Assembly: GCA_001662655.1 (NCBI GenBank)
Contig: KV460217.1
DNA from: Pseudogymnoascus verrucosus
Taxonomy: Eukaryota
DNA length: 64,000 nucleotides
Reading direction: 5' to 3' (one strand)
The notes under the pieces: generated by a model
Told to the model about the DNA's origin: nothing
Databases searched by the model: none
What the model saw: the letters and a program-made list of their open reading frames with translations, nothing else
Part shown: one piece after another, positions 1-64,000 of the stretch
Layout: each line of letters opens with the position of its first letter
Numbering within the stretch: the stretch's first letter is position 1
Program-made: the position numbers and the translations under genes

Positions 1-1480
1 GTATCATGCCACTCGTCGTTATCATCTATATTTTCAGCTACCTCGATCGGAATAGCGTGAGTGAAGCTACTTCTCCCTATTCCAACCTTAATGCTGATGA
101 GATTATTAGATAACTCAAGCTCGTTTGTATGGTTTGCAAGAAGATACCAACGTTACCGGTGCAGTATACAACACTGCTATTGCCATCTTCTCTGCTGGAT
201 ATGTCATTATGCAATTGCCCTCCACAGTCATAATGACCAAAGTGCGTCCTTCTATCTACCTGGTAAGCCATACATGCATGTCATTCTGAATTTTGGCTTT
301 TTGCTCACTCAAGTAGCCATGTTGTATGATTGCATGGGCCATTGTCAGCGGCTCAACAGCTGCAGCATCAAGTCCTGCAGGCCTCCTTGTTGCCCGATTC
401 ATGCTCGGGCTAATCGAAGCTCCCTTCTATCCTGGTGCAGTCTACTTCCTCTCCTGCTGGTATACAAAGAAGGAACTTGGTATACGGATGGCATTCCTCA
501 TCTCGGGCCTCCTTCTCTCCAATGCCTTCGCTGGTCTTATCTCATCTGGCGTCCTCTCCGGTATGGCCGGCGTCGGAAATCTGGCTGCTTGGCGCTGGCT
601 CTTTATTCTTGAAGGGCTAGCAACTATCGCAATCGCCCTAGTGGCTCTTGTCTTTCTCCCGGACTATCCTGCTACAACTAAATGGCTTAGCGAAGAAGAA
701 ACCATCGTCGCCCAAGGCCGCTTAGCCAAGGACGCGGGTAGCGACGATGTCTTGGACGAGGAGAAAGTCCCTATGCTCCAGGGCATCAAATGGGCACTGC
801 AAGATCCGCGTACCTGGATGTTTGCCTGCTTGCAGATGTGTGCTTCGGCTGCCATCTCATACTCTCACTTCTTCCCGACTCTAATCTCCCAACTAGGATT
901 TACCAACAACACTACCACATTATTGCTGACCTCTCCCCCATATCTCTTCGCCTTCCTTTGGTCACTAGGCCTTGCCCTCAATGCAGACAAGATGCAAACT
1001 CGGTCGCCGCACGCGGCCATCTCAATGCTCGTCGGCATGGTTGGCACCATCCTATTGATTGCCGTACCCATCCACTATAAATACCCCCGTTACGCCTTCA
1101 CCTTCCTCGTGGCCTCGGGGTCCTTCGGTGTTTACTCCTCCACATATACCTGGCTCTCCTCTACGATCGTCCGTCCACCCGTCAAGCGCGCCGCCGCCAT
1201 CGGTATCGCCAACACTATTTCTAACACAGCAGCGCTGTTTGGCGGCTACTTCTGGCTTGACATTTACTCCCCAGCCTTCCGCGAGTCGTGGGGCTGCGAG
1301 TTGGCCTTCATGGTTTTGGGGCTGGCGTGTATCCTGACGCTGAGGCTGGTGCTGCAGAGGGCCAATAAGGCGTTCGATAAGTTGGCGGCCGAGATTGACC
1401 CCAATGATAGTGTTGCTATGGCGGCTCTGGATGATGATTCACGGCGTGCAGTACAAAATGGGTTTAGATATATTATTTGA
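1..1480 (+). CDS. MFS transporter, anion:cation symporter (Dal5/Tna1-like) family; 5' end lies outside the window
   Basis: Spliced reading gives YLDRNSITQARLYGLQED (intron 57-109); second intron ~263-317. Typical ACS motifs ARFMLGLIEAPFYPG, WYTKKELGIR, AWRWLFILEG, LPDYP; stop at 1480. Confidence 0.9.
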
Positions 1481-2365
1481 GCGAGCTGTTATTTATATGC
1501 AATGGGGGAAAGTTAGTTTAGCTCTAATTGGATTAAATGTAGATTAGATTGCATGCCTTCAACCTCCTACCGGAGAATAGAAGAAATATTTCTGATCGTT
1601 GAATTGGCCCCTCACAGCACCGGTAAAACTTTATATGGGAGAATGTTCTATCTTGATGCAACAAGAGCCGTCTCCAAACCCTGACCGAGCCCTTCGACGT
1701 CTGATATAATATGGTTCCTATATTATAGCACGATGGTTAGTGATGGGGTCTGTGGAGAAGCTGGAAACTAAGTTTAGAAATGGCAATGCTCATTTCTGGA
1801 ATCATTGGCGTGCTTCGGCCTCTCCATCTAATGGTATAATGGAAACGTACCCACGAGATTTGGATCCCATTATAGTAATGCATTTCAATCTCGTATACTC
1901 CATCCGCGTTTATTTATTGTGGGATTCTCATTAGGACAGTAGTAGGACTTTGCGTAGCCCGAGACTCGTATACTAAAGGTCAGGCCGTCATAAATCCCAA
2001 ATAGCATCGCAGTTGTTGTTTCGCACGCGTCAGCGTAGCGGGGCAATTGCCATGGTATCAGCACCATGGATGCACTAGTGACACTGCTGTCGGGCCTACA
2101 TGCAACTAGCTCTACCCCGCCGGAGATCTACTCCCCGGATTTTCCCACGCGGGGATTCACTCGCCAAACTCCTTTGGCTCCGCCGTCCCGGGAATTTACT
2201 CCCCGATGCTGTGGTATATCACCTTCTTCTTTCTCATTGGAGGAGTACTTATCGGCACTATTCATTTTACTCCCTATAAGAAGTCATACTTAGAGGATTG
2301 TCTCAGTTCCGTGACCAGTCCATTTATTTGATCTCTTTGCCTAGCATCGCCAAATATCCAGTGCC

Positions 2366-3304
2366 ATGGCCAACTCCAAACCAACCTCGGGAGACTTTAC
2401 AAAAACCCCAACCTGGCTCGACTGGTACGAAGGACCAACCACCCCAGCATTCAAACTCCCCCCCGGAGCCGTCGACTCCCACTGTCACGTCTTCGGTCCG
2501 GGCTCGGAATTCCCATACGCCCCTGAGCGCAAATACACGCCGTGCGACGCATCAAAAGCTCAGCTCTTTGCGGTCCGCGACCACCTCGGTTTTTCCCGCA
2601 ACATCGTCGTGCAAGCAACCTGTCACGGCGCCGACAACAGCGCGCTCATCGATGCCTGTTCCTCCAGCGGCGGGCGCGCCAGAGGAATCGCTACCGTGAA
2701 GCGCAGTGTCTCCGATGCCGAGCTAGCCCAGCTCCATGAGGCCGGTGTGCGCGGCGTACGATTTAACTTCGTCAAGCGGCTGGTGGATTTTACGCCCAAA
2801 GACGAGTTGATGGAGATTGCAACGCGAATTGAGCGGCTTGGCTGGCACGTCGTCATTTACTTTGAAGCACAGGATCTGCCCGAGCTATGGGACTTCTTTA
2901 CCGCGCTGCCGACTACCATTGTAGTGGACCATATGGGACGGCCTGATGTCTCAAAGCCAATTGATGGGCCTGAGTTCTCACTGTTTTGCCGATTCATGCG
3001 CGAGCATCCCAATGTGTGGACGAAGGTTTCCTGTCCAGAACGGCTAACTGTTAATGGGCCGCCAGCGCTAGATGGCGAACGTAGTGCGTACAGAGATGTG
3101 GTGCCATTTGCACGCGCTCTGGTAGAAGAGTTTCCAGATAGGGTTTTATGGGGAACGGACTTCCCACATCCTAACCTCAAGAGCCACATGCCGGATGATG
3201 GCTTATTAGTAGACTTTATACCATGGGTTGCTGTGACTCCTGAATCAAGGCAGAAGTTATTGGTTGATAACCCAATGAGATTGTATTGGCCAGAAGAGAT
3301 TTGA
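2366..3304 (+). CDS. ligI: 2-pyrone-4,6-dicarboxylate lactonase (LigI/PmdD-like amidohydrolase), intronless
   Basis: Motifs DSHCHVFGP, PERKYTPCDA, VVQATCHGADN, GVRGVRFNFVKRLVD, VDHMGRP, KVSCPER, LWGTDFPHPN, MPDDGLLVD and KLLVDNPMRLYW match bacterial PDC hydrolases as I recall them. Confidence 0.92.
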   Translation: MANSKPTSGDFTKTPTWLDWYEGPTTPAFKLPPGAVDSHCHVFGPGSEFPYAPERKYTPCDASKAQLFAVRDHLGFSRNIVVQATCHGADNSALIDACSSSGGRARGIATVKRSVSDAELAQLHEAGVRGVRFNFVKRLVDFTPKDELMEIATRIERLGWHVVIYFEAQDLPELWDFFTALPTTIVVDHMGRPDVSKPIDGPEFSLFCRFMREHPNVWTKVSCPERLTVNGPPALDGERSAYRDVVPFARALVEEFPDRVLWGTDFPHPNLKSHMPDDGLLVDFIPWVAVTPESRQKLLVDNPMRLYWPEEI

Positions 3305-3806
3305 AAAGAGGAATATAGCGCGGATCTGAAGGACAACTACGGGTGGCGCAGCTCAGAACTTCACGTCCAGTTCGGAGTAGGTTTCTAGCAAAGCCCTCAC
3401 CTGCAGGACTTCGTCTGCAGCTGTGGCACGTTATACAGTATAACAGTCCATAACACTCTGTTGCCTAGGCCCCTCGCCAATCGAAAGGATACATAAGTGA
3501 TAAGGGCTGCATAGAAGGTTACGGGGGGGGTAGCAGCCTCCAGAGGGGCAAACGTTCCTCATCGTGATTTCAGAGAACAGCCTTGTTCAAGATTACTAGT
3601 AGCTTACCACAAAAACAATTCTTTTTCTACTACTACCTGTGTATTGCTACTACACTTATGGTCTATAGGCCCTATTCTATCTTCATCTTAATAATACAAT
3701 GACTTCCGAAACAGGCTTTAACCAATTCTATTCGAGCTAGGAAGTTAATAGGGCCATCGAAAATCTGCTGCGGCTATATCTTACTATAGTGTGAGAAAGA
3801 AATATA

Positions 3807-6323
3807 TGTTCCGGCCCAACCGTCAGATCGGCCAGCTCGCGAGCTGGCCGGCCCAACCGCGAAGTGGCGGTGTAGAATTGTATCGTAGAAATTGAAATCC
3901 TACCTCCTACCTCCTACAACTATAGTATAGTATAGTAATTATGGCTACTATTACTTCAATTACTCCATTTCCATTTGACGTACGCACTGCTTTTGAGGCC
4001 TATATAAGCAGCCCTACTTACTACAATCGAGAGCAATTCTCACACGAAAAATGGAGCCAAATACACACTATACTCGAGGATCCAGCTGCTTTTATTCCGC
4101 ATAATAAAGAGAGTACAAACCTAAAGCACCATACACTCTCTAGCTTTAAGCTTGTTAATAATAAGCTATATAAGCAGAGTGATAGGCGGAGTGATAAGCA
4201 GCACCTACGAGCTGTAGTTCAAAAGGCTGAGGTGTTTGATGTTATTGCACAAGAGCACCTTAAGCTTCTACACGCAGGTCGGAATAAGGTATGGCCTACT
4301 ATTAAGCAAAAATACTATGGAATAAAGCGAGAGGATGTAGAGTTTATACTTAAACGGTGTAAGAATTGCACTTTGAATAGGCCGAACACTACAAAAGCTC
4401 CCTTAGTTCCTATTATAAGTGGACGGGCGTGGGAGAGGGTTCAAATCGACTTAATTGATATGCGCCACGAGCCTTCAGGGCAGTATAAGTGGATTCTTCA
4501 TATAAAGGATCACTTCTCAAAGTATACACAGCTATACCCATTGAAAAGCAAGCACGCAGAGCCTATTGCAGAGTGCTTTGCTCAATTTATTGCAGCTTTC
4601 CTACCTCCGAAGATTATGCAGGCTGATAATGGGAAGGAATTTAAGGGGGCTCTCTTACTCCTACTACGGAAGTATGGAATACAGGTGGTAAATGGAGCAC
4701 CACGGTCGCCACAAACTCAGGGCCTAGTCGAGCAGGCTAATGGGGTTGTTGAGAATAAGCTCCGGGCATGGAAAATGGATCATGGGTCTACAGAATGGAA
4801 GGATGGGCTATTAGAGGTTACACTTGCTATGAACACCCAAATCCACTCTACAATTGGGTGTGCACCAGCTGAGCTTCTGTTCCGGGAACGGAGCTCATAT
4901 ATCAATTGGCTCGATAGCCAGGCCCGGAAGGATCTAACAATTGGAATTGAGCAGGAGGACCCAGCTATGGGCCCTATTTTCGAGAGCGACCTCCAGTCTG
5001 AGCTTGAGTCCGAGACAGAAGCTCTAATCGACCCACAGCTCCAGCAAGTCCCTGAGCCTAGCTCTAGCTCTGAGCCTGAGCGAGAGCTCGATTCTAGGCT
5101 TCGAGCCCAGCCTAAAAACCGAGCTAGAGCCACAGCCCAGCACCAGCAAGCCCCTAAGCCCAGAATCGAGCACTCTAGCTCAGAGCTCAATTCTGAGCCC
5201 AGCTCTAGCTCTGAGCTCGAGCTAGAGCGAGAGCTCAATTCTGAGCTCTCTCGTCTAGTTCCTACTCGAGCTCAGGCTCGAGTACTGGCTCAAATCCAGG
5301 CTGAGCCAGAGTTCTGTCTTGAGCTCGAGAACTCTAGAGCCCAGCGAGCCCCTGAGCCCAGAATCGAGCTCTCTGGCTTAGGGCTCAGAACTCGAACCAG
5401 AGCTGGCGCTAGAGCCCTGATCCAGCTTGGACCAGAGCTCGGAATTGAGCTCTCTAGCTCTAGCCCTAATTCCGAGCCCAACTCTGGCTCAGAGCTTGAG
5501 CCAGAGCCAGAGCGAGAGCTCAATTCCGAGCCCCGGCGTGGGACCCGGGCCCGAGTTCCAGCTCAGCCTAGAACTGAGCTTCAGGCTACACCTGATCCTA
5601 TAATTGAAAGAGCTATAGCAGCCACTCAACGAGCTAGGATTTCTATGGTGCGGAAGTATACAAAGAAGCATGATATTCAGCACTTTGATATAGGAGCAAT
5701 AGTCTCTATAAAGGTTCCTCGAGAGGATAGAACCTCAACTGATAATAAGAGGCTATTTGCACGGATTCTAGAAGAGCCTTACCCTCATAGGTATCGGATT
5801 CTTACAGCTTCTGGTATTATACAACGCCTTATTCCTACAAAATCACTTGGAGTTGTAGAGCAAGCTCTATGGGCTGATATTATAATTCCTACTTCTACAA
5901 AGCAGGTATCATTAGGGCTTGCAGCTAGAGAGGCGTCTACAAGTGCTCGGGTTGGAATATCCTGTCAGTGTAAAGGGCAGTGTAGTACGAAGAGGTGTAG
6001 GTGTTATAAGGAAGCTAAGGAGTGTAGTGTACACTGCCATAACGATGACCATAACTGTGGTAATTTATCAGGTCTTACTACTCGTACGGAAATAGCTTTA
6101 GTTGAAAGGCCTCGGAAACGAGCACGGGCAGACACTGTTGGAAACGTAGCTATATAGATCAATTGAATACTCTTACTTCTAATTAATTGCTCGCGGTTGG
6201 GCCGGCCAGTATATAACATAACCTAAGAGCGCTTAAAAAAGAGAAATGGTTAGTCGATTCCGAAATCTGCCTTGGGTCTCTCTAAAAAGCCGTATCCTGT
6301 ACCTACAGGGTTGGGCCGGAACA
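3807..6323 (+). mobile_element. Complete Ginger-like (integrase-type) DNA transposon, ~2.5 kb
   Basis: Perfect 15-bp TIR TGTTCCGGCCCAACC (3807-3821) / GGTTGGGCCGGAACA (6309-6323), TGT...ACA ends, and a 4-bp TATA TSD (3803-3806, 6324-6327). A second 19-bp inverted pair lies at 3844-3862 / 6191-6209. A single integrase ORF is present, with no RT, gag or LTR. Confidence 0.9.
3941..6157 (+). CDS. Retroviral-integrase-like DDE transposase (KRBA2/SCAND3/Ginger2-like)
   Basis: HHCC zinc motif (EHLKLLHAG...CKNC), rve core (VQIDLID...KDHFSK...QADNGKEF...QGLVEQAN), low-complexity S/E/P/L linker and C-terminal Cys cluster CQCKGQCSTKRCRC...CSVHCH. The 738-aa ORF is uninterrupted. Confidence 0.9.
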   Translation: MATITSITPFPFDVRTAFEAYISSPTYYNREQFSHEKWSQIHTILEDPAAFIPHNKESTNLKHHTLSSFKLVNNKLYKQSDRRSDKQHLRAVVQKAEVFDVIAQEHLKLLHAGRNKVWPTIKQKYYGIKREDVEFILKRCKNCTLNRPNTTKAPLVPIISGRAWERVQIDLIDMRHEPSGQYKWILHIKDHFSKYTQLYPLKSKHAEPIAECFAQFIAAFLPPKIMQADNGKEFKGALLLLLRKYGIQVVNGAPRSPQTQGLVEQANGVVENKLRAWKMDHGSTEWKDGLLEVTLAMNTQIHSTIGCAPAELLFRERSSYINWLDSQARKDLTIGIEQEDPAMGPIFESDLQSELESETEALIDPQLQQVPEPSSSSEPERELDSRLRAQPKNRARATAQHQQAPKPRIEHSSSELNSEPSSSSELELERELNSELSRLVPTRAQARVLAQIQAEPEFCLELENSRAQRAPEPRIELSGLGLRTRTRAGARALIQLGPELGIELSSSSPNSEPNSGSELEPEPERELNSEPRRGTRARVPAQPRTELQATPDPIIERAIAATQRARISMVRKYTKKHDIQHFDIGAIVSIKVPREDRTSTDNKRLFARILEEPYPHRYRILTASGIIQRLIPTKSLGVVEQALWADIIIPTSTKQVSLGLAAREASTSARVGISCQCKGQCSTKRCRCYKEAKECSVHCHNDDHNCGNLSGLTTRTEIALVERPRKRARADTVGNVAI

Positions 6324-6641
6324 TATATTTTTGGCTTAGCGCCTTTTCGAACCAACACCAACAGCTCCCCATACGTCTTCAGACTCTCTTCTCGCCAACT
6401 CCGGAGATGCTATTTGATTTCAAAACTGCAATTACCCAGCCGTCTGACCAGAAGCTGAGAAATCGACATGCTCTGGACGCATTTTATTGCTGCATCGGCT
6501 TGTGCGACAGGATTGGTAATGGGCCAGCTTATTTATCTCGATGGTGACGTCGTATATTGGGCCGGCGCCTATAAATGAATCGTAGTTCTCCGAATACATT
6601 GTCGTAAACTTCTCAACAGAGCACATAATTCATTTGACAAT

Positions 6642-7511
6642 ATGTCTGACACCAAAATATCAACCATCACCGCCGACGGCGTGGACGTTTTCTATCGCAG
6701 CGCTGGTTCTCCCTCGGATCAAGTAATCCTCCTTCTTCATGGGTTTCCATCTTCGTCACACATGTTTCGCAACCTCATCCCTCTACTCTCCAAGCAATAC
6801 CATGTCATCGCGCCCGACCTTCCTGGGTTCGGATTCACGAATGTGCCAGCAGACAAAAAATACGAGTACACCTTTGCGAATCTCACTCTGACGATCGAGG
6901 CGTTCCTGGATGCCCTCAAAGTCCAAAACTTCGCTGTGTATATATTCGATTATGGGGCTCCAGTCGCCTTTCGCCTTGCCCTCAACCGCCCCAAAGCTAT
7001 CACAGCTATCGTCACCCAGAATGGCAATGCATACGAAGAGGGCCTCGGGAAGGACTTCTGGGCGCCAATTCAAGCGTACTGGAAATCTGGCGCCAAGGAG
7101 GATAGAGATAAAATTGACTCCGCCGTGCTTAACTTTGATATGACAAAATGGCAATACACTTTTGGCTCTCCGCACCCGGACTCTATTTTCCCCGAGAGTT
7201 ATTACCTGGATAGTGCACTGCTTGAGAGGCTAGGCAACCACGGAATTCAGCTGGATCTTCTATACGATTATAGAACCAACGTTGCGCTATATCCCCGTTT
7301 TCACAAGTATCTGGAGACCTCAGGCGTCCCAGTTCTTGCTGTGTGGGGTAAAAATGACCCCGCGTTCATTGCACCGGGAGCAGAAGCTTATAAGAATCAT
7401 GTGAAGGATATTGAGATACACTATTTGGATGCTGGGCATTTTGCTCTGGAAACGAATGAAGTGGAGGTTTCAAAGCTGATGGCGGATTTCTTGAAGAAGC
7501 ATAATATCTAG
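6642..7511 (+). CDS. Alpha/beta-fold hydrolase (epoxide hydrolase/haloalkane dehalogenase-like), intronless
   Basis: LLLHGFPSSSHMFR, APDLPGFG, Asp nucleophile elbow IFDYGAP, QNGNAYEEG, WGKND and catalytic His in DAGHFALE. Confidence 0.9.
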   Translation: MSDTKISTITADGVDVFYRSAGSPSDQVILLLHGFPSSSHMFRNLIPLLSKQYHVIAPDLPGFGFTNVPADKKYEYTFANLTLTIEAFLDALKVQNFAVYIFDYGAPVAFRLALNRPKAITAIVTQNGNAYEEGLGKDFWAPIQAYWKSGAKEDRDKIDSAVLNFDMTKWQYTFGSPHPDSIFPESYYLDSALLERLGNHGIQLDLLYDYRTNVALYPRFHKYLETSGVPVLAVWGKNDPAFIAPGAEAYKNHVKDIEIHYLDAGHFALETNEVEVSKLMADFLKKHNI

Positions 7512-7754: not shown

Positions 7755-7828
7755 GCTATAGCTACTGTTTCATGTTTTAAGGTGGGATGTAGCTATAGCT
7801 ACTGTTTCATGTTTTAAGGCGGGATGTA
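7755..7828. repeat. 37-bp tandem duplication (2 copies, 1 mismatch)
   Basis: GCTATAGCTACTGTTTCATGTTTTAAGGYGGGATGTA occurs twice in tandem. Confidence 0.9.
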
Positions 7829-55786: not shown

Positions 55787-58185
55787 CTATTCGAGGATAT
55801 CCGTCGTCCAAACCCTATTTTCTTCATTCCCGTCCAGAGTATCGTCCGGAATAGAGGAGCATATAAGCGATACATCAACCACCCCAGGTTCCACAGAATC
55901 TGGGTTAATTGCTCGCCGAATCTGTGCAACAACCTCGGTGATTTTCGACACGTCCAAGTGTACCCAGCTCCACATCTGAAATACTTTGAGAGAGTCTGCG
56001 GACATGTCAGCTTGAAGCGAAAAGCTATAGAAAAGACAGTCGAGCTCACCTTGGAGTATGCGCGCGATCTGCCACCAACGCGCAAAGTTCTCCAGTGAAA
56101 TACTCAGCAGATCGAGGGCGTTATCGATCCTTGTAGCTACTTCCGAATTGCCGTCGTCGGTAAAAGACATTTTGTGAATGGTCAACCCACAGTGCGCATG
56201 CCATATCGCACAGCTTATCACAGGATCCGCAACAGCGAAGTATTCCGATTCCCAATGGTGGAAAACACCTGCGAGATCCTCCGCATAAGTAATACTGCTT
56301 TGCCAGCAGCTGAGGGAGTCCCCTGTTATTCTATGTGCTTGTTCAGTGCCTAAGGTTCTCACTGGCTCGTTGATTATCAAGTGTGCGCTAGTACACGTTA
56401 GTTGCTGCCATCTTGCTAGGAATTGCACTTACGTGTGAAACATAATTATCGTTTCGAGTCTATGTCTGTGGGAATGAAACTGCTCTGATGGACGCTTAGC
56501 GGCATTGAAGTACCAGGCTGGTAAAGCGAGACGCATGCATGAAAATGTGTTTCTGAGAGCCATCATACGAGCAATTTCCTCTGGCGTTGAGTTTGCATAG
56601 AGGCGCTGCTGGCATTGAGATACGCCCCGAAGTAGTGACACGGCGAGAAGGTGGATATTAAATCCATCTCCGGGATCAAGAGACTGCATTTCTCGGACTG
56701 CCCTCCATGATTTGGCTGAGTCGGTGTCCAAAAGCGTCCCGGTGGACTGTTTTGTAATTCCATTCGTAAAATCTGCAACTGTTGTCGAAACCAGCGCGGA
56801 GCCAATTGTATGGCAATCTATTCCAAATGGCATTACGGCGGTAACATTGATCGTTGAATCCAATTTCCATATTGCCCACCATACAAATCTCCATTCTTCT
56901 CGATCCGCATCGGACAAGCCACACGAGTTTCCCTTAATATCAATCTGATGAAGTCGACTAGCAAGAGACAGTCGCACAGCATTTCCGACATACATCCATG
57001 CCTTACGGCCGGGATAATTGGTATACTCATGGATAGCCAATAGACATGCGGTTTTAATATCATCTAGACATATTGCGCTGTTTTCTTCAAGCCTATTATG
57101 GGACTGTTGGTGTGCAAGCTTTGCAAAATTCTCCCATGGTGTAGAGAACTTCCCAAAGACTCGAAAAACATCAGACGTCGGGACAAATCTCGACGACATA
57201 GCAAACATGGCGTTGAGAAGGCTTTCGGGGATTTGGTTTTCGTGAAACCTTTGGTGGAACATAGGCTTGCGGAACATGGGGAAGATGGGTTGAATATGAT
57301 CGAAGTATAGACAGATACTGAAAATATATTAACATAACCCGCAACATTAGGGTTTGTTACATACAGAAGCTGTTTGGAATCTTCAGCTAATGTGCTAGCA
57401 GAAAACAATGTTGACGCACTAATGACTGGCGACATGACTGGTTGTTCAACAGAAAAAGGTGGACTATCTTCGGTCCTAACAGGGTTGCCTTCGAGAGATG
57501 GCGAAAACTGTAACAGTGATTCCATGTTCGTCACTGCCTGCAATGGGCCGTTGCTGTTTGGGCCCAGGATGGGGTATGTGAAGTTCTGCTGCTCATAGCC
57601 CTGCAAAAAATCGACGGCGAGTGGATTATGGTATGCTAGCGGTTGCATTTCGGAATCTTGCGTGTAATAACCTGGTATGGCATTCTGTCCCGATGCTAAT
57701 TGGCCATGGAGGCCTTGTAATAAGCCTTCAAGATGATCTTCCAACTATAATTAATGCCAAATCATCAGAGTCAGGAATGAACTGACTAACTCAATCTGAA
57801 TGACATATCTCTCGTCTTCGAGGATACCGAACCTTTAGCAGGACCAGGCCGTCTCTTTTTACCCTCGTATTGGCAGGTATAACCACTCGTTCGGCACCTT
57901 GAGCATGTCGGCCGTTCGAGGTTGCCTATATAAGCATGAGCAGTCTAAACAGTGTTACATCGGGAGTATACCGTACATTTTCTTTTCAATCTAAATAAAG
58001 GGACACTATGTCAGCATTACGAATCTGTAACAAGTCGAGTTCCATTACCTCTTGCAGTTGCTACACACCCGGTATTTTGAGGCACTATCTTCCTCTCCAC
58101 GATTCAAATTGCCAGAGCTTCTTGTACTCGTAGTCGATGTCGTGTCTCGCAAAGCTGAAGGGCTGAGGTCTTGTTGACTGTACAT
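55787..58185 (-). CDS. Zn(II)2Cys6 transcription factor with fungal-specific TF domain
   Basis: Spliced CSNCKR|LKRK|CNLERPTCSRCRTSGYTC uses a 14-nt micro-exon (57977-57990). Middle domain AWMYVGNAVRL...LHQID...REEWRFVWWAIWKLD. ATG at 58185. Confidence 0.85.
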
Positions 58186-58512
58186 TTGCAGATATCTGGT
58201 TTGGATAATAAGGGTCTAAGTTGATTAATATGAGAGGATAGATAATAGATGGTGGGAGTGGCGTACATTTTGTACGATTTGAAAGAAGGTGGAGAAGCAA
58301 AGTCCACTAGTGCGGGGTGTGGAGGATGGGCCCGCCCCCAATACTTCCGTACTCAAGTGCTAATGTCTAACTTTTCCTAGTTGAGATAATACCCTAGATT
58401 ATGCTGGGGGATCCACAAAAATGAAATTCATTAATACAAGAGGAGCCTCATAGACTTTTCGGGTCTACTAAATATGGAAACTTTTCATCATTATTATCTT
58501 CTATGGGAATAA

Positions 58513-59621
58513 TTATTGCGTTCCTTCTTTCTCAAACACAATAGTATTTCTTAGAACTCCAATTGGCTTCACTTCCACCTCGACTACGTCTCCATCCTTG
58601 AGAGGACATTTGGGGTTCTGGAACCAGCCTACACCTGCTGGCGTACCGGTCATAATAGCCGTGCCCGCAGGAATCGTCGTACCTGTCCGATGAAGTTTTG
58701 TTAGCTTATCTGTGCCCTTTAATATAGAGAAAAACATTGAAGCCACTCACCTTGCGACAAGAAGCTTAACAATTCGTCTACTGGGAAGATAAAATCAAAC
58801 GGGCTATCCTGAACCACCTTTCCATTCACTCTTGTCGTAATCCTGCGGTTCTGGTCGGGACTAAATACTGAGGGGTGTACAAGTCTTGGTCCCAATGGGC
58901 CGAATTTATCGAACCCCTTAGCGTACGTGTACTGACCACCAGAAGTGCGCTGGAAAACCCTTGCCGTGAGGTCGTTTCCGATGGTGTATCCAAGGATGTA
59001 TGACATGGCCTTTGAAGCTGGGACAGATCTTATGGAGTCGCGGAGAACGACGGTGAGTTCGCCCTGTTGTGAAGAGGGATATGTAAGCAATCGCCAGGGC
59101 AAGAACAGTAACTAAAATGCAGTGAGACATGAATTTACCTCGAAATCAGGGAAGGAGCGGTGGGCTTGTGGAGGGAAGCTGATGGATGTGTTGTGGTCTG
59201 CGAGAGCAGCGGCTGGTTTGTACCACATTGGCGGGTCTTCTGGAATTGGTATCTTTGGATTAATTACGTCAGTTTTGCTAATTTATGAGATATAGGGCAG
59301 TGAAAGACGAACCGAGGCTTCGTTTGCATGGTTTCTGTAGTTCAAGCCAACGCAGATAATTGGAATACCTGTGGTAGGAACTGGTGCTAAAAGCTATACA
59401 CAAGCGTTAATAAGTTACAATGATTTGAATTGCGTATCTGTGAGGGATCATACATTTTTGACCGTCACCTCCGCAAAAACACCATCCGACTCGAGTGCCT
59501 CAATGCTGGCATATCCCTTCACCTTCAAACCTGAAGCTGCTGTTTCATCTAGAGAAAGTGCCGCCCAGTGTTCGCCGCCTTCTACAGCTGTAAAGCGAAT
59601 AATACTGTCCCAATGAGCCAT
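58513..59621 (-). CDS. Fumarylacetoacetate hydrolase (FAH) superfamily protein
   Basis: [67 protein letters not shown]; four introns. Confidence 0.9.
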
Positions 59622-60333
59622 GGTTAATATATGATTGAATGATACTGGAATGCTTTGATTTTTCGACTTCACCTCAGACTCCATATAACATATATATAAT
59701 CATCCTCTAAAACAACCTTAGGAAACATAGCTAGCCATGTCTACACTAGGCAGTCGCAAGTTCTACATTAAGCGCAAAATAATCATTATCTTGTTGCGGA
59801 CTAATCTCTGCGTTCTATGCGGACAAATTTGAGGGATGCCCATCTCAGAGTGCCTGTGCTTTCATGGACCACCTTGCCGGGCTCAAAACGGCTAGACTAT
59901 AAAGTGAACTTTGGTAGAGTGGGGCTAGTGGGGAATTATTAGCATCTGCGCAGGATATTCGGCAACGTGCGGAGTATTTGATGCGCGGGGCATTTGAATA
60001 TGCATGTGCGGAGTAAATAGATATGCCGCCTCCGCCTCCGCATGTACCTATTGGGCATCTATTGCAGGGACAATACGTCGGGGATTTGTGAAGCTCACCA
60101 AAGATGGAGATCCACAAGGAAGACTTGTAGAGCTTGCCACGTGAGGAAAGATCAAAGAGCTCGTTCGAGCTAGCTATTTGCACTTTCCTAATCCGATCCC
60201 CTAATCCGATTCACTAGGCCTTGAATCCTCGAAGGCTGCGACGCAAACCCCAAGGGATTGAACAAGGCGCTACATTTTCAACAAAAAATGTATATCATGA
60301 TTATGTATTTGGTCTGCAATGATCATAATATAA

Positions 60334-61409
60334 CTATTCTGCTACTCCTTTCTCTGGTCTAACAGGTCCCCAAATATACATAGACGCGGCACCTTCACTC
60401 TTTGTTCTCCCAGTAACATTGTCAATATTAACTACATCCCCATCTGCATAATGCTCAATCGTGAACCCTGTTGGATCTCTCCAATAATCGAAAATCTGCG
60501 AGCCCAGGATATGTCTTCCAACGCCCCAGACCGGAGTATAGCCTTTGCTGAGTAGGAAGTCGTGGCCTAGAAGTTGTGTATCAAAGTCTTCCACCTCGAA
60601 TGAGCAATGGTGGAGGCGATGCTTATCAGGGAAATTTGCTGGCGCGCGAAACAAGAACAACGTATGGTGATCGCTGTACTCTTTGGCGTGATCCAGGTGC
60701 ATGAAGGTTAGAGTATCAATTTCTTCGCCATTGACCTCTTCGTATAGAATGTCCGAGGGGACAAAGTTGAAATTGAGAGTATAGAAGGCAATATCCTCGT
60801 CGAACATGGACGTGATGAAGCCGTAATGGCCGAGCTTATGAACCATAGCCGGGCCGAGTTTGAATCTCTGGAATTCGCCTACAAAGTTAGCCTCTATTTC
60901 GAAATCCTTATGACACAACGCAAACATATACCTTTTCTGGACTTCTGCAGAGTAGTATTATACGCTCCTTTGTGAATTTCCGTGCTAGTGGCAACCTTTG
61001 TTGGCGCTGGACGTTCTCCATTACCCCAGAGAACATGAATCTTAGAGGACGATGGAGACTCGATAGTCACGATTTTGCCACCACCTGGGCCGAGATTTGG
61101 CCTCACTTCTGACGCCCCCTTCAACTTTGATGATTTTATAAAATCCTCTTCTGTCTGAGCAATAAAAGCAGCACCTTCAAAGCGCTTCTGTCCATCTTTA
61201 CTCTTGATGGCTACATACGCACAAGAGTCTTTTCCCCAGCCACGGTAGTATATGATATCTTTGTCTCGCCCTGCTTCCTCAAATCCAAAATCTTTCGCGA
61301 ATTGGTCGAATTTTTCGAGGTCAGGATGTGCAAGATAGACGTGGCTGAGGCGGTTGAGTTGGATCTTGTCTGGCGAGTTGATGACAGGTGGAATACGTCC
61401 TGGTAGCAT
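60334..61409 (-). CDS. VOC/glyoxalase-fold extradiol ring-cleavage dioxygenase (trihydroxytoluene oxygenase-like)
   Basis: RLSHVYLAHPDL, VHKLGHYG, FMHLD, DHHTLF, HHCSFEVED, WGVGRHILGSQIFDYWRDPTGFTIEHYADGD (His/His/Glu metal ligands); one intron ~60879-60931. Confidence 0.88.
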
Positions 61410-61915
61410 CTTGAATATAGTATGTCACTAAATTGAAGAATGATGAGGAGATAATATCTGAGGTGTATTAGAGTGATACTAGCTTGAATGTCGAAGATTG
61501 CAGTAGTATTTTGATACAGTAGAATAACGGAAGATTATGGTGGATAGTATTCAATAAACTCTAACCTTCCTCTAAATGATCTCTTATCTGTTGAATTCAT
61601 TTCACCATTTGCTATCCTGCATAATTAGTAAATTGTGAGTTTTAGCTTCCACCTAATTACTCCGCGGGACGTATGGGGAAGCGGAACATCTTTTGGATAG
61701 CTTCTCCGCTGAGTGGTGGTGTATGGTAACCCCTCGTCCCACAAAAATACGGAACAGAAAATTAACGAGCACATGCAGATGCGGTGGTGTTGAATCCAAC
61801 ATGCAAGGGTCCATGTAATAAGCTTCCCCGCAATCTGTCTCTTTATATTATTTTGAGTCTTCACTTTTCTCCAGAGAGATTGCAGAAAGCTAAGACGACT
61901 AAACAGTAGCTAATC

Positions 61916-64000
61916 ATGGAAGAAGCAACTATATTGATTATTGGGGCTGGACCAAGTGGTCTTGCTCTGGGGACACTTCTTGCTCGTATGAATCTCAAGG
62001 TACTCTAAAAATTGGGACCTTTTAGAGCTTAAATTAACAGATTTCCAGGTCGTCATTTTGGAGAAAGATATAGAAATCTGTGAAGATCCTCGCGGCATTG
62101 TTATAAATGGAGATGCAGTTCGCATCTCATACCAAATTGGCATTGGTGAAGGACTGACGACGAGAATTGGCAAGGGTAAGCAAGACATATACTTGAGATG
62201 ACCCCAGTAAGTATTTCATCTGACTTGCATTGAAGATATTGGTGTTCTTCACTTTCATAGTGGCAACTTCAGGCAACGCACGTTCATGAACTATGACTTG
62301 ACAATCGACTGGGCCGAACAAGGAGTTTCCAACAACATCGCCCAGTTTCAGCCAAATTTCGGTAAGTTAGCGACTTTCTGTAGTCATCTTGCATTTCTAA
62401 TAATATTGTTAGAGCGAGAGATCAGAAGTGTGATCAAAGACCTACCATGTTGCGATCTTAGACCAGGTTGCGAAGTCATAAGCAGGGACGAAGGTAAAGA
62501 CACCACCGTGGTTGAGTACATAACACAAGATGGAAGTAAGAAATCTATCAAGACGTCGTGGCTCGTTGGGGCAGATGGAAAGCGCGGTGTGGTAAGGAAG
62601 AAGTTCCTGGAACCGGAAGGCATCAAACAAATTGATCGCCTGTAAGTCGGCAAAATGACAACATCTTTTCGAGATCGCCACTAACATCAATTGCTGACAG
62701 GTGGACCTATGTTGGAACATGGGTCGCGGCGAACCTCAAAATAACAACACCAACACCGAAGACGCACCCAGATTTTCCGCTATGGCAGCTTGGATATACA
62801 CCAGAGCAAGTGCATGATATATTTTGGCCAAGCGGCTTCCAGTAAGTCTCAGTCTATTGTATTGTTGTTATGGAGACTAACTATACTTCTAACACCAGCT
62901 TCTGCAATAATCCTAAGAGACCGGCAGTTAGTGGAAGATTCGGACCGGCTGGGGCTCAGTTCTGGAGGTATGAAAAATTGTCAGAATACCTCTATCCACG
63001 AGCTAACATCACATTAGGCACGAATTCTCAATTGAGCCTAACGATAATCTAGATAACATAGAAGATAATTTTTGGAAGCAATTCGGCACGTGGATGATAG
63101 TGCCAGGGTCAAAATTTTCACAGAAACTTGGAGATACTACAATCGAATTTCCCAGGGATTGTATAGACCTCATCCGCTGCCGGCCATTTCAGTATGCTTT
63201 CACATACATCCATTTCTTAGATTAATTGCTAATTCCAAATTAGATTTGCTTCAAAAGTCGTCAATAGGTGGTATTGTCGGAAAACTATGTTGATCGGCGA
63301 CGCTGCTCACGTCTTCCCACCATTTGGTGGCCAAGGGATTGCCACTGGTATACGAGACGCCCAAGCCTTGAGTTGGCGACTTGCCATCATGTCCAACCTG
63401 CAGGTTTCTCGTGAAACACGGGAACGGATCCTCACAGGGTGGAGTCAAGAGAGACTCCACGCCTGGGATGCGGCCACTTTATCAACAAAATTGAATGGTA
63501 GCATTGTCAACCAACGTTCATTAATCAAAGGACTTTTTTACCGGTTTTTTATGCGAATCCTGTGGTCTGTACCTGGGTTTGCGCATTTCCGCACGAAGGC
63601 GGCATTCCGAGACAAGCTCATATATAATACTCAGAGTTGCCCTGGTGGCTTCTTCCTGGAATCTGCAGGAGGTGGCCGCAAGGTCGCGCAGATCTGGGTT
63701 CGAAGACCAGGACCAGGCCATAAACCGACGCTTTCCGACAGGGTTTTTCTTCGCAACCTATCTCATCTTTCGATTCTAGTCCTTGTCAGAAAGCCTGAAG
63801 ATATTGATCCTGCCGGAATCGAAGAGGTGCTGCAAGTGTCAAAATTATCCGAGCAAGTCTTGACTATGCAGGATATTACATACTTATACCTAAACAGCAC
63901 TCAACAGCCTCTGTACGAGAATGATGAACATATATACTACCCGTGCAAGGTAGATGAGTTGACTGTTGAAGGGATAACACCAATTAGGGGCTACCACGAA
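61916..64000 (+). CDS. FAD-dependent aromatic hydroxylase (MhpA-like); 3' end beyond the window
   Basis: IIGAGPSG Rossmann motif, EDPRGI, WLVGADGKRGVVRK, IGDAAHVFPPFGGQGIATGIRDA; many introns. Confidence 0.88.

What the first reader, a model, noticed from the sequence alone, without database searches (positions are those of the whole stretch)
2366..3304. Bacterial-type PDC lactonase (LigI/PmdD) embedded in a fungal chromosome: probable horizontal transfer
Seen: an intronless 312-aa ORF next to an intron-containing fungal gene, with the full LigI motif set (HCH, RFNFVKR, DHMGRP, CPER, GTDxPH). Known: LigI/PmdD acts in the bacterial protocatechuate 4,5-(meta)-cleavage route for lignin-derived aromatics, whereas fungi normally use intradiol cleavage. 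From memory, the N-terminus (FTKTPTWLDWY) and the GPPALDGERSAYRDVVP insert resemble Comamonas-type betaproteobacterial PmdD more than sphingomonad LigI. Inference: a transferred gene that lets the fungus use PDC made by bacteria or by its own pathway. The C-rich start and G/T-rich end mirror host genes here, which argues for an ameliorated gene rather than contamination.
Basis: partly seen in the sequence, partly recalled or inferred. Interest (0 to 1): 0.85.

Follow-up and report, generated by a model that had tools for sequence, protein, structure and literature searches.

The report
Bacterial lignin-pathway lactonase gene in fungus
A group of related soil fungi carries an intact bacterial-type gene for an enzyme that opens a ring compound formed during lignin breakdown; it was most likely captured from bacteria long ago and has been kept next to a fungal acid-uptake transporter.

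Summary
Window 2366..3304 (+) is an intronless 312-aa ORF and a full-length LigI/PmdD-type 2-pyrone-4,6-dicarboxylate (PDC) lactonase (Pfam Amidohydro_2 2.5e-60; solved Sphingobium LigI 4d8l E 1.2e-107), with every family-invariant position kept.

It is not contamination. The rest of the window is ordinary fungal chromosome. An independent 47.9-kb contig spans the gene and both flanks. The same gene occurs in 11 named Leotiomycete genomes (Pseudogymnoascus, Cadophora, Leptodontidium).

Its nearest non-fungal relatives are 79-83% identical Burkholderiales-type bacterial proteins. These lie inside protocatechuate 4,5-cleavage operons in 90 of 92 well-flanked loci. The fungal window holds the lactonase alone.

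GC3 is 0.59 (host range 0.48-0.82), against a bacterial median of 0.87, so the transfer is old.

Fungal sequences form one clade. Whether that clade is nested in, or sister to, the sampled Comamonadaceae group is not resolved.

New here: the gene is always paired with an intron-bearing fungal organic-anion MFS permease. Relatives of that permease across Pezizomycotina are paired with a distant native amidohydrolase of the same superfamily.

Verdict: horizontal transfer well supported. PDC uptake and hydrolysis is inferred, not shown.

The parts
2366..3304 (+). Intronless CDS of a LigI/PmdD-type 2-pyrone-4,6-dicarboxylate lactonase (312 aa, stop included), bacterial in origin
   Evidence: ORF. 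Amidohydro_2 E 2.5e-60. LigI 4d8l E 1.2e-107. 79-83% identity to Burkholderiales-type proteins. All 39 columns that are >=97% conserved over 341 family rows are kept.
3..1480 (+). 3' part of an intron-bearing fungal MFS permease gene of the organic-anion (DgoT/HpaX-like, 'allantoate permease') group. Exons 3-56, 110-262, 317-1480; the gene runs off the window's 5' end at about residue 66.
   Evidence: tblastn of P0122 and the sequence itself. MFS_1 E 5.8e-25. TIGR00893/HpaX-like, below cutoffs. Adjacent to LigI in five other genomes, by consecutive locus tags or a fused gene model.
57..109 (+). Spliceosomal intron 1 of the MFS gene (GTGAGT...TAG, 53 nt)
   Evidence: Gap between the two tblastn segments, and the sequence printed.
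263..316 (+). Spliceosomal intron 2 of the MFS gene (GTAAGC...TAG, 54 nt, in frame)
   Evidence: 18 extra columns in the tblastn segment, and the sequence printed. The stop-to-stop ORF resumes at 317.
1481..2365 (.). 885-bp spacer between the MFS stop and the LigI start; presumed LigI promoter/5' UTR
   Evidence: Coordinates. Both indels between the window and the X5 contig fall here (2096, 2287).

Best explanation
The ORF is a functional bacterial-type PDC lactonase gene (LigI/PmdD).

Origin. An ancestor of a Leotiomycete group (Pseudogymnoascus, Cadophora, Leptodontidium) took it from a proteobacterium carrying a Burkholderiales-type protocatechuate 4,5-cleavage (pmd/lig) operon. Only the lactonase is seen at the fungal locus. 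It landed 885 bp downstream of, and in the same orientation as, a native intron-bearing MFS organic-anion permease. It has since been inherited together with that permease and recoded to host composition.

Mechanism (inferred). The permease imports PDC, or a very similar pyrone-carboxylate released by lignin- or tannin-degrading neighbours. The metal-independent lactonase then hydrolyses the lactone to 4-oxalomesaconate/4-carboxy-2-hydroxymuconate, which host enzymes would have to process further.

Shown: identity, bacterial ancestry, chromosomal residence, age, conservation, and pairing with the permease. Inferred: the substrate, the role of the permease, and the fate of the product.
For: Identity
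- Amidohydro_2 E 2.5e-60.
- Full-length match to solved LigI, 363 bits. By my hand count from the alignment, 161 of 297 aligned positions are identical.
- The window residues H39, H41, Y57, R132, R138, Y165, H189 and D265 align with LigI H31, H33, Y49, R124, R130, Y156, H180 and D248. They are invariant in 13 of 13 fungal and 274 of 274 close bacterial rows. The PDB variant 4dia differs from the wild type at the position aligned with D265.

Bacterial ancestry
- Of the 120 best hits, the only fungal cluster is the gene's own. The other organism-named rows are Hydrogenophaga, Rubrivivax, Aquitalea, Lampropedia, Burkholderiales and Hyphomicrobiales.
- 591 relatives were found in prokaryote genomes; the best 80 are 77-83% identical, mostly Comamonadaceae.
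- The nearest Atlas clusters are 100% Bacteria.
- The family has 6635 representatives at E<=1e-3.
- LigK, LigA, LigB or LigC lies beside the bacterial gene in 61 of 63 well-flanked genome loci and 29 of 29 well-flanked metagenome loci (Pfam/NCBIfam).
- The fungal protein and Hydrogenophaga PmdD are equally far from Sphingobium LigI: 363 and 361 bits.

One fungal clade
- FastTree, 341 rows: support 90.
- Quick IQ-TREE, 78 rows: 96*.
- Careful IQ-TREE, 38 rows: UFBoot 98, and recovered in 99% of 200 bootstrap trees.

Not contamination
- Fungal genes fill the window.
- A 47,895-bp contig of run X5 covers 1-3700 in one piece, with 9 substitutions and 2 indels.
- The gene is present in 11 named fungal genomes, on contigs of up to 3 Mb.

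Age
- GC3 is 0.587, against a host range of 0.48-0.82 and a bacterial median of 0.871 (n=160). The best nucleotide identity is 72-74%.

Constraint
- All 5 SNPs seen in coding sequence are synonymous: 2 in LigI, 3 in the MFS.
- For one strain pair, LigI is 92.6% identical and its MFS neighbour about 94.5% (the second figure is my arithmetic).

Pairing
- MFS-LigI adjacency is seen in the window, four Pseudogymnoascus genomes and Cadophora sp. M221.
Against: - No enzyme assay exists.
- No whole genome was held, so it is unknown whether the fungus has anything to make PDC or to consume the product. The window has no LigA/B/C/K homolog.
[quoted passage not shown] The close bacterial set also includes Bradyrhizobium, Methylocella, Steroidobacteraceae and Zoogloeaceae, so the donor family is uncertain.
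- The three nearest sisters (P0007, P0056, P0083) are unnamed and could be eukaryotic or bacterial.
- 12 positions are fungal-specific, including W->F next to the catalytic Asp (position 266). A shifted substrate is therefore possible.
- The roles assigned to the catalytic residues are recalled from Hobbs et al. 2012, which I could not read.
Confidence: 0.78

Rival explanations
1. Same horizontally acquired gene, but the enzyme now hydrolyses a different lactone (a fungal or plant pyrone- or muconolactone-carboxylate) and not PDC, so it has nothing to do with a 4,5-cleavage route.
For: - No pathway partner lies in the window.
- There are 12 fungal-specific substitutions, including F266 beside the catalytic Asp.
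- The family contains other lactonases: 4-sulfomuconolactone hydrolase is the only NCBIfam hit, and it is below cutoff.
- Related MFS permeases in other fungi pair with a distant amidohydrolase that lacks the R138 and Y165 equivalents.
Against: - All eight LigI active-site and substrate-binding positions, including R132, R138, Y57 and Y165, are kept in 13 of 13 fungal rows. Among 54 deep family representatives, only 11 keep R138 and only 11 keep Y165.
- The protein is 79-83% identical to proteins sitting in pmd/lig operons.
Confidence: 0.15
2. The MFS-LigI pair spread among Leotiomycete genera by fungus-to-fungus transfer after one bacterial acquisition, not by vertical descent with losses.
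For: - The named distribution is patchy: three genera in two orders.
- A TIR-bounded integrase element lies 495 bp downstream.
- Fungal-fungal divergence (12-14%) is close to fungal-bacterial divergence (17-20%).
Against: - Both the LigI tree and the MFS tree separate Pseudogymnoascus from Cadophora/Leptodontidium, as taxonomy does.
- LigI and the MFS diverge in step.
- Only 15 of the cluster's 55 members were listed, so the true distribution is unknown.
Confidence: 0.15
3. Ancient eukaryotic or fungal gene inherited vertically and lost almost everywhere; or transfer in the reverse direction, fungus to bacteria.
For: In the careful tree the outgroup attaches beside the fungal branch.
Against: - 80% identity to bacteria across domains, with no other fungal lineage among the 120 best hits or the 41 'longer' hits.
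- The gene has no intron, while its neighbour has two.
- The bacterial genes are operon-embedded in 90 of 92 well-flanked loci.
- The family has thousands of prokaryotic members, including far deeper branches.
Confidence: 0.03
4. Bacterial contamination or a chimeric assembly.
For: None found.
Against: - GC3 0.587 against a bacterial median of 0.871.
- One X5 contig of 47,895 bp bridges the MFS, LigI and the downstream flank.
- The gene lies on large contigs in 11 named fungal genomes.
- The flanks are fungal genes.
Confidence: 0.01

Closest known systems
LigI, 2-pyrone-4,6-dicarboxylate hydrolase of Sphingobium sp. SYK-6 (PDB 4d8l, 4di8, 4dia)
   Same: Same fold and length class. Full-length alignment at E 1.2e-107. 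By my hand count, 161 of 297 aligned positions are identical. All recalled active-site residues are kept.
   Different: The fungal protein has the 8-residue insert (two 4-residue gaps in LigI) and a longer N-terminus. It sits in a eukaryotic chromosome without ligA/B/C/K neighbours.
PmdD-type lactonases of Comamonadaceae and other Burkholderiales (for example the Hydrogenophaga, Malikia, Acidovorax and Delftia loci L001-L080)
   Same: 77-83% identity and the same length. The same insert length occurs in 267 of 274 close bacterial rows. The N-terminal motif is the same type.
   Different: The bacterial genes have a GC3 median of 0.87 and lie between the LigK aldolase and LigA-LigB-LigC, under a LysR regulator. 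The fungal gene has GC3 0.59, stands alone behind an MFS gene, and carries 12 clade-specific substitutions.
Native fungal COG3618-type amidohydrolase paired (as fused gene models) with the related MFS permease in Aspergillus, Fusarium, Colletotrichum, Aureobasidium and Hypoxylon (P0334-P0424)
   Same: Same superfamily (PF04909). LigI is also its nearest solved structure (E 1.1e-6). It shows the same kind of pairing with an organic-anion MFS.
   Different: Only 26% identity to the window protein (69 of 266). It lies upstream of the MFS, not downstream. The R138 and Y165 equivalents are not aligned to the same residues. Its MFS partners form a different clade.
Other bacterium-to-fungus transfers of single metabolic genes (for example AS3MT, PMC5398495; D-amino-acid enzymes, PMC5169069; both seen as search listing and abstract start only)
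   Same: A single intronless bacterial enzyme gene fixed in a fungal lineage that includes Pseudogymnoascus (listing).
   Different: A different enzyme and pathway. I found no paper describing LigI/PmdD in fungi.

Membership tests
LigI/PmdD PDC lactonase (COG3618, amidohydrolase superfamily) | Amidohydro_2 (PF04909) TIM-barrel domain covering the whole protein | tested here: met
   E 2.5e-60, residues 36-307 on profile positions 1-287 of 289.
LigI/PmdD PDC lactonase (COG3618, amidohydrolase superfamily) | Close full-length similarity to a biochemically and structurally characterised LigI | tested here: met
   4d8l E 1.2e-107, query 15-311 on chain 7-294. The next PDB family (2ffi) scores only E 1.4e-32.
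LigI/PmdD PDC lactonase (COG3618, amidohydrolase superfamily) | Catalytic and substrate-binding residues H31, H33, Y49, R124, R130, Y156, H180, D248 (roles recalled from Hobbs et al. 2012, which I could not read) | tested here: met
   They align to H39, H41, Y57, R132, R138, Y165, H189, D265. These are invariant in 13 of 13 fungal and 274 of 274 close bacterial rows.
LigI/PmdD PDC lactonase (COG3618, amidohydrolase superfamily) | Curated equivalog model score | not testable with these tools
   NCBIfam has no LigI model. Both the fungal protein and an operon-embedded Hydrogenophaga PmdD hit only SlmHylase, below its cutoff: 210 and 215 bits against 500.
LigI/PmdD PDC lactonase (COG3618, amidohydrolase superfamily) | Hydrolysis of PDC to OMA/CHM without a metal cofactor | not testable with these tools
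   Needs a recombinant enzyme assay.
Protocatechuate 4,5-cleavage (lig/pmd) gene cluster | Lactonase encoded beside LigAB dioxygenase, LigC dehydrogenase and LigK aldolase | tested here: not met
   tblastn of Hydrogenophaga LigK, LigA, LigB, LigC and orf405 against the 64-kb window gave no hit at E<=1e-3. The Pfam survey of 27 window ORFs found none. The rest of the genome could not be searched.
Bacterium-to-fungus horizontally transferred gene | Fungal sequences form one clade whose nearest relatives are bacterial, inside a family that is otherwise prokaryotic | tested here: met
   Nesting within one bacterial family is not resolved.
Bacterium-to-fungus horizontally transferred gene | Physical linkage to native eukaryotic genes in independent assemblies | tested here: met
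   The X5 contig of 47,895 bp spans 1-3700. Consecutive locus tags or a fused gene model link LigI and the MFS in 5 other genomes.

The most novel reading that the evidence does not exclude
An organic-anion MFS permease paired with a COG3618 lactonase-type amidohydrolase is an old, widespread but uncharacterised two-gene catabolic module of Pezizomycotina. It may be the missing lactone-opening step of the unresolved fungal extradiol (meta-cleavage) route for plant phenolics. The Leotiomycete lineage here rebuilt or replaced that module with a bacterial xenolog (LigI/PmdD), gaining true PDC specificity. That would let these fungi feed on a dead-end intermediate that bacteria and chemistry release from lignin and tannins.
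Probability: 0.22. Interest if true: 0.72.

Novelty: new member of a known kind. Interest (0 to 1): 0.55.

Why it matters
Fungi are thought to funnel aromatics through intradiol-type central pathways. [quoted passage not shown] A conserved, constrained, genuinely LigI-type lactonase in a fungal lineage gives a concrete and cheap experiment. Express the protein, assay it on PDC, and knock out the pair. This would ask whether some fungi consume PDC, a compound of industrial interest as a lignin-derived polymer precursor.

The recurring permease-amidohydrolase pairing in many other fungi points to an unstudied catabolic module.

As an evolutionary case it is a clean and datable bacterium-to-fungus transfer: shared by several genera, fully ameliorated, and an operon gene kept without its operon.

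Tried and rejected
- Whole-genome search for LigB and for extra LigI copies: no genome is held for this window. Pathway completeness stays open.
- Metagenome contigs, searched for independent fungal loci: 80 loci, all 76-82% identical and bacterial-looking; no fungal locus.
- 'Longer' LigI search for fused fungal gene models: 41 hits among 2774 candidates, all bacterial-style fusions (dehydrogenase, PrpF, RraA, LigA, TctC). The one MFS-containing hit, P0483, is an Arg/Ala-rich, high-GC, frameshift-like bacterial product. The tool itself rates a blank from this search as weak evidence.
- Names for the nearest sisters P0007, P0056 and P0083: none on record.
- Careful IQ-TREE on 78 rows did not finish in 695 s, and one search returned nothing. 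I replaced it with a careful 38-row tree.
- RSCU correlation does not discriminate: LigI against host r=0.51, against bacterial genes r=0.45, and host against bacterial r=0.59.
- Expression. X1 (guessed RNA) has three small contigs at 1097-1259, 2443-2595 and 3164-3363. X2 (a rhizosphere metatranscriptome) has one contig, on the MFS only (1166-1439). X6 (kind unknown) has eight small contigs on both genes. All are contigs and DNA carry-over is possible, so transcription is not shown, and stretches without cover mean nothing.
- Earlier findings of this scan: nothing, by sequence or by words.
- Hobbs et al. 2012 (DOI and PMC3416963) is not held.
- The idea that LigI simply displaced the native amidohydrolase at the same MFS gene is not supported as stated. 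The LigI-linked MFS genes form a clade separate from those fused to the native enzyme, the gene order differs, and in two Pseudogymnoascus models (P0326, P0327; sequence read for P0326) the MFS is fused to a mitochondrial-carrier domain, which P0326 shows at its N-terminus.
- Structure prediction, fold search and complex prediction were not run. The solved LigI homolog makes the first two unnecessary, and neighbouring genes alone do not justify the third.

Full report
**1. The observation**

Window 2366..3304 (+) is an uninterrupted 312-codon ORF that begins at the first ATG after an in-frame stop.
- It is an Amidohydro_2 protein, E 2.5e-60 over residues 36-307.
- It aligns end to end with the solved 2-pyrone-4,6-dicarboxylate hydrolase LigI of Sphingobium (4d8l, E 1.2e-107, 363 bits). 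By my hand count from that alignment, 161 of 297 aligned positions are identical.
- NCBIfam offers no LigI model. The only hit is 4-sulfomuconolactone hydrolase, far below cutoff. An operon-embedded bacterial PmdD behaves the same way.

**2. It is in a fungal chromosome**
- The gene just upstream on the same strand is an MFS permease with two GT..AG introns (57-109 and 263-316). It runs off the window's 5' end.
- The remaining 60 kb encodes ordinary fungal proteins: Utp13, a proteasome subunit, a DEAD-box helicase, a fungal-specific transcription factor, RTA1, fungal rhodopsin, GH47, GH125 and a P-type ATPase.
- A 47,895-bp contig from an independent run (X5) covers window 1-3700 in one piece. 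It differs by 9 substitutions and 2 intergenic indels, so it is not the same assembly.
- The exact protein belongs to a 90%-identity cluster of 55 members. The 15 listed rows include LigI from eight Pseudogymnoascus genomes, two Cadophora and one Leptodontidium, on contigs of up to 3 Mb.
- The window protein is 96-97% identical to named Pseudogymnoascus proteins, so the window is a Pseudogymnoascus-type Leotiomycete.

Contamination and chimerism are excluded.

**3. Where the gene came from**
- In a search of 5.8 billion proteins, the only fungal cluster among the best 120 is the gene's own. The rest are 78-83% identical proteins. Those that carry an organism name are Hydrogenophaga, Rubrivivax, Aquitalea, Lampropedia, Burkholderiales, Burkholderiaceae and Hyphomicrobiales.
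- In one genome per prokaryote species, 591 stretches encode a relative. The best 80 are 77-83% identical and mostly Comamonadaceae or other Burkholderiales. A minority are Bradyrhizobium, Methylocella, Steroidobacteraceae, Pseudoxanthomonas and Zoogloeaceae/Rhodocyclaceae.
- The ESM Atlas neighbours are 100% Bacteria.
- The family has 6635 representatives at E<=1e-3.
- In the Hydrogenophaga locus L016 the homolog lies in the order LysR regulator, a 405-aa ORF, LigK aldolase (NCBIfam equivalog 413.7 bits against a cutoff of 304.5), LigI, LigA, LigB, LigC.
- Across loci with at least 3 kb on both sides, LigK, LigA, LigB or LigC lies beside LigI in 61 of 63 genome loci and 29 of 29 metagenome loci. 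None has a match anywhere in the 64-kb window.

So an operon gene has been kept without its operon.

**4. Phylogeny**
- FastTree, 341 rows (13 fungal, 274 close bacterial or unnamed, 54 deep representatives): the fungi are one clade (support 90). P0007, then P0056+P0083, are successive sisters, and the group is nested among Hydrogenophaga-like sequences.
- Quick mixture-model IQ-TREE, 78 rows: the same picture, with fungi at 96*.
- Careful IQ-TREE, 38 rows: the fungal clade stays (UFBoot 98, SH-aLRT 63, in 99% of 200 bootstrap trees). However, the long outgroup branch attaches at a trichotomy of P0007, the fungi and the other 29 ingroup rows (28 bacterial or unnamed close rows plus the misplaced outgroup row OG_P0183).

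Fungal monophyly is therefore robust, and so is the unrooted split of fungi+P0007+P0056/P0083 against all named bacteria (96/94* and 95/97*). Nesting inside Comamonadaceae is not robust, and no donor genus can be named. P0007, P0056 and P0083 carry no names.

Independently of rooting, the fungal protein and Hydrogenophaga PmdD are equally distant from alphaproteobacterial LigI, at 363 and 361 bits. The fungal lineage therefore branches within bacterial LigI diversity. Inside the fungal clade, Pseudogymnoascus separates from Cadophora and Leptodontidium, as taxonomy does.

**5. Age and constraint**
- The gene's GC3 is 0.587. This is inside the range of 12 host coding stretches (0.48-0.82) and far from the median of 0.871 for 160 bacterial or metagenomic homologs. 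The best nucleotide identity to any of them is 72-74%, against about 82% at protein level. The gene is fully ameliorated, so the transfer is old. It predates the divergence of the genera that share it, unless it later moved between fungi.
- RSCU correlations do not discriminate.
- All 39 alignment columns that are at least 97% conserved over the 341 rows are kept in the window protein.
- The eight LigI active-site and binding positions are invariant in 13 of 13 fungal rows. Their roles are recalled from Hobbs et al. 2012, which I could not read. Only 11 of 54 deep representatives keep R138, and only 11 keep Y165.
- All five substitutions that other strains show in coding sequence are synonymous.
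- Twelve positions are fungal-specific, among them W266F beside the catalytic Asp.

**6. The partner**

The upstream MFS is of the organic-anion (DgoT/HpaX-like) type. Depositors name it 'allantoate permease'.

LigI and this MFS are adjacent, by consecutive locus tags or a fused gene model, in four named Pseudogymnoascus genomes and in Cadophora sp. M221. In Leptodontidium both genes are reported on a contig of the same length. For one strain pair LigI is 92.6% identical and the MFS about 94.5%, which suggests they were inherited together.

Unexpectedly, 14 of the 120 best MFS relatives are gene models fused to a PF04909 domain. They come from Aspergillus, Fusarium, Colletotrichum, Aureobasidium and Hypoxylon.
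- That amidohydrolase is N-terminal, so it is encoded upstream of the MFS.
- It is only 26% identical to the window protein.
- LigI is still its nearest solved structure, at E 1.1e-6.

In an MFS tree of 75 rows, these 14 are scattered through a 63-row clade that follows fungal taxonomy. The six LigI-linked MFS genes form their own starred clade, sister to the Zopfia, Lophiostoma and Kalmusia genes.

So pairing an organic-anion permease with a COG3618 enzyme recurs in Pezizomycotina, and the Leotiomycetes have an analogous pair built with a bacterial enzyme. Direct displacement at one locus is not shown.

**7. Mechanism**

Shown: a conserved, intact, LigI-type lactonase of bacterial descent, physically and evolutionarily coupled to an anion permease.

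Inferred: the permease takes up PDC or a close analogue from the environment, and the lactonase opens it to 4-oxalomesaconate/4-carboxy-2-hydroxymuconate. LigI chemistry is reversible, as described in passages of PMC13047686. Downstream steps are unknown because no genome could be searched.

[quoted passage not shown] The abstract of PMC10832562 lists the assumed fungal central pathways, and none of them is a 4,5-cleavage route.

Evidence for transcription is only a hint from small contigs in one guessed and one true RNA library.

**8. Novelty**

Six literature searches found no paper describing LigI/PmdD in fungi or its transfer. The library lacks most subscription journals, and large HGT surveys may list the gene in supplements that I did not open.

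Bacterium-to-fungus transfer of single metabolic genes is a known kind of event (listings), so this is a new member of a known kind. It has two features of wider interest: an operon gene retained alone for a long time, and the link to a recurrent and unstudied permease-amidohydrolase module.

**9. Verdict**
- Horizontal transfer: strongly supported, about 0.9.
- Retained PDC lactonase activity: likely, about 0.65-0.7.
- Functional coupling to the permease: plausible, about 0.5.
- Donor: a Burkholderiales-type pmd operon lineage. The family is not resolved.

Noticed in passing
window 3800-6330: A 2.5-kb element bounded by a perfect 22-nt inverted repeat (3800-3821 / 6309-6330), with subterminal GGCCGGCCCAACC motifs. 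It encodes one 738-aa ORF (3941-6157) with Integrase_H2C2 and rve domains, a long Ser/Glu/Pro/Leu-rich repeat region and a Cys-rich C-terminus. There is no reverse transcriptase and I saw no clear target-site duplication. From memory it resembles 'Ginger'-type DNA transposons. It lies 495 bp downstream of LigI.
   Followed up: partly
proteins P0334, P0336, P0340, P0343, P0344, P0354, P0356, P0359, P0362, P0364, P0368, P0370, P0404, P0424: In Aspergillus, Fusarium, Colletotrichum, Aureobasidium and Hypoxylon, an uncharacterised COG3618-type amidohydrolase is annotated as fused to (so encoded directly upstream of) an organic-anion MFS permease related to the one beside LigI. This is a widespread two-gene module of unknown substrate.
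   Followed up: partly
window 55787-64000: A possible aromatic-catabolism neighbourhood about 52 kb from LigI: a fungal-specific transcription factor (56429-57328, -), a Glyoxalase/dioxygenase-superfamily ORF (60334-60957, -; E 1.5e-7) and an FAD_binding_3 aromatic-hydroxylase-type ORF that runs off the window's end (63233-64000, +).
   Followed up: no
protein P0001 (ENA metagenome, 417 aa): A LigI homolog with an internal duplication of roughly the middle third (the VRGxRFNFVRRLVDF...VSCPERL block occurs twice). It may be an assembly chimera or a real tandem duplication.
   Followed up: no
proteins P0445-P0461: Many bacterial or metagenomic proteins fuse LigI to an NAD_binding_2/DUF1932 dehydrogenase domain (16 of the 41 'longer' hits). 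The same dehydrogenase type lies upstream in the Hydrogenophaga locus L016 (2940-3854).
   Followed up: no
L016 5988-7202 and its homologs: A 405-aa ORF with no Pfam or NCBIfam match sits between the LysR regulator and LigK. It is conserved beside LigI in 60 of 63 well-flanked genome loci and 28 of 29 well-flanked metagenome loci. By position it may be the hydratase or isomerase step, but it is unassigned here.
   Followed up: partly
window 7755-7828: A tandem duplication of a 37-nt unit (97% identical), downstream of the alpha/beta-hydrolase gene at 6642-7511.
   Followed up: no
proteins P0326, P0327: In two Pseudogymnoascus genomes (VKM F-4246 and F-4513) the MFS is annotated as fused to a mitochondrial-carrier (PF00153) protein. 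The order there is therefore carrier, MFS, LigI. The window starts too late to show the carrier.
   Followed up: no
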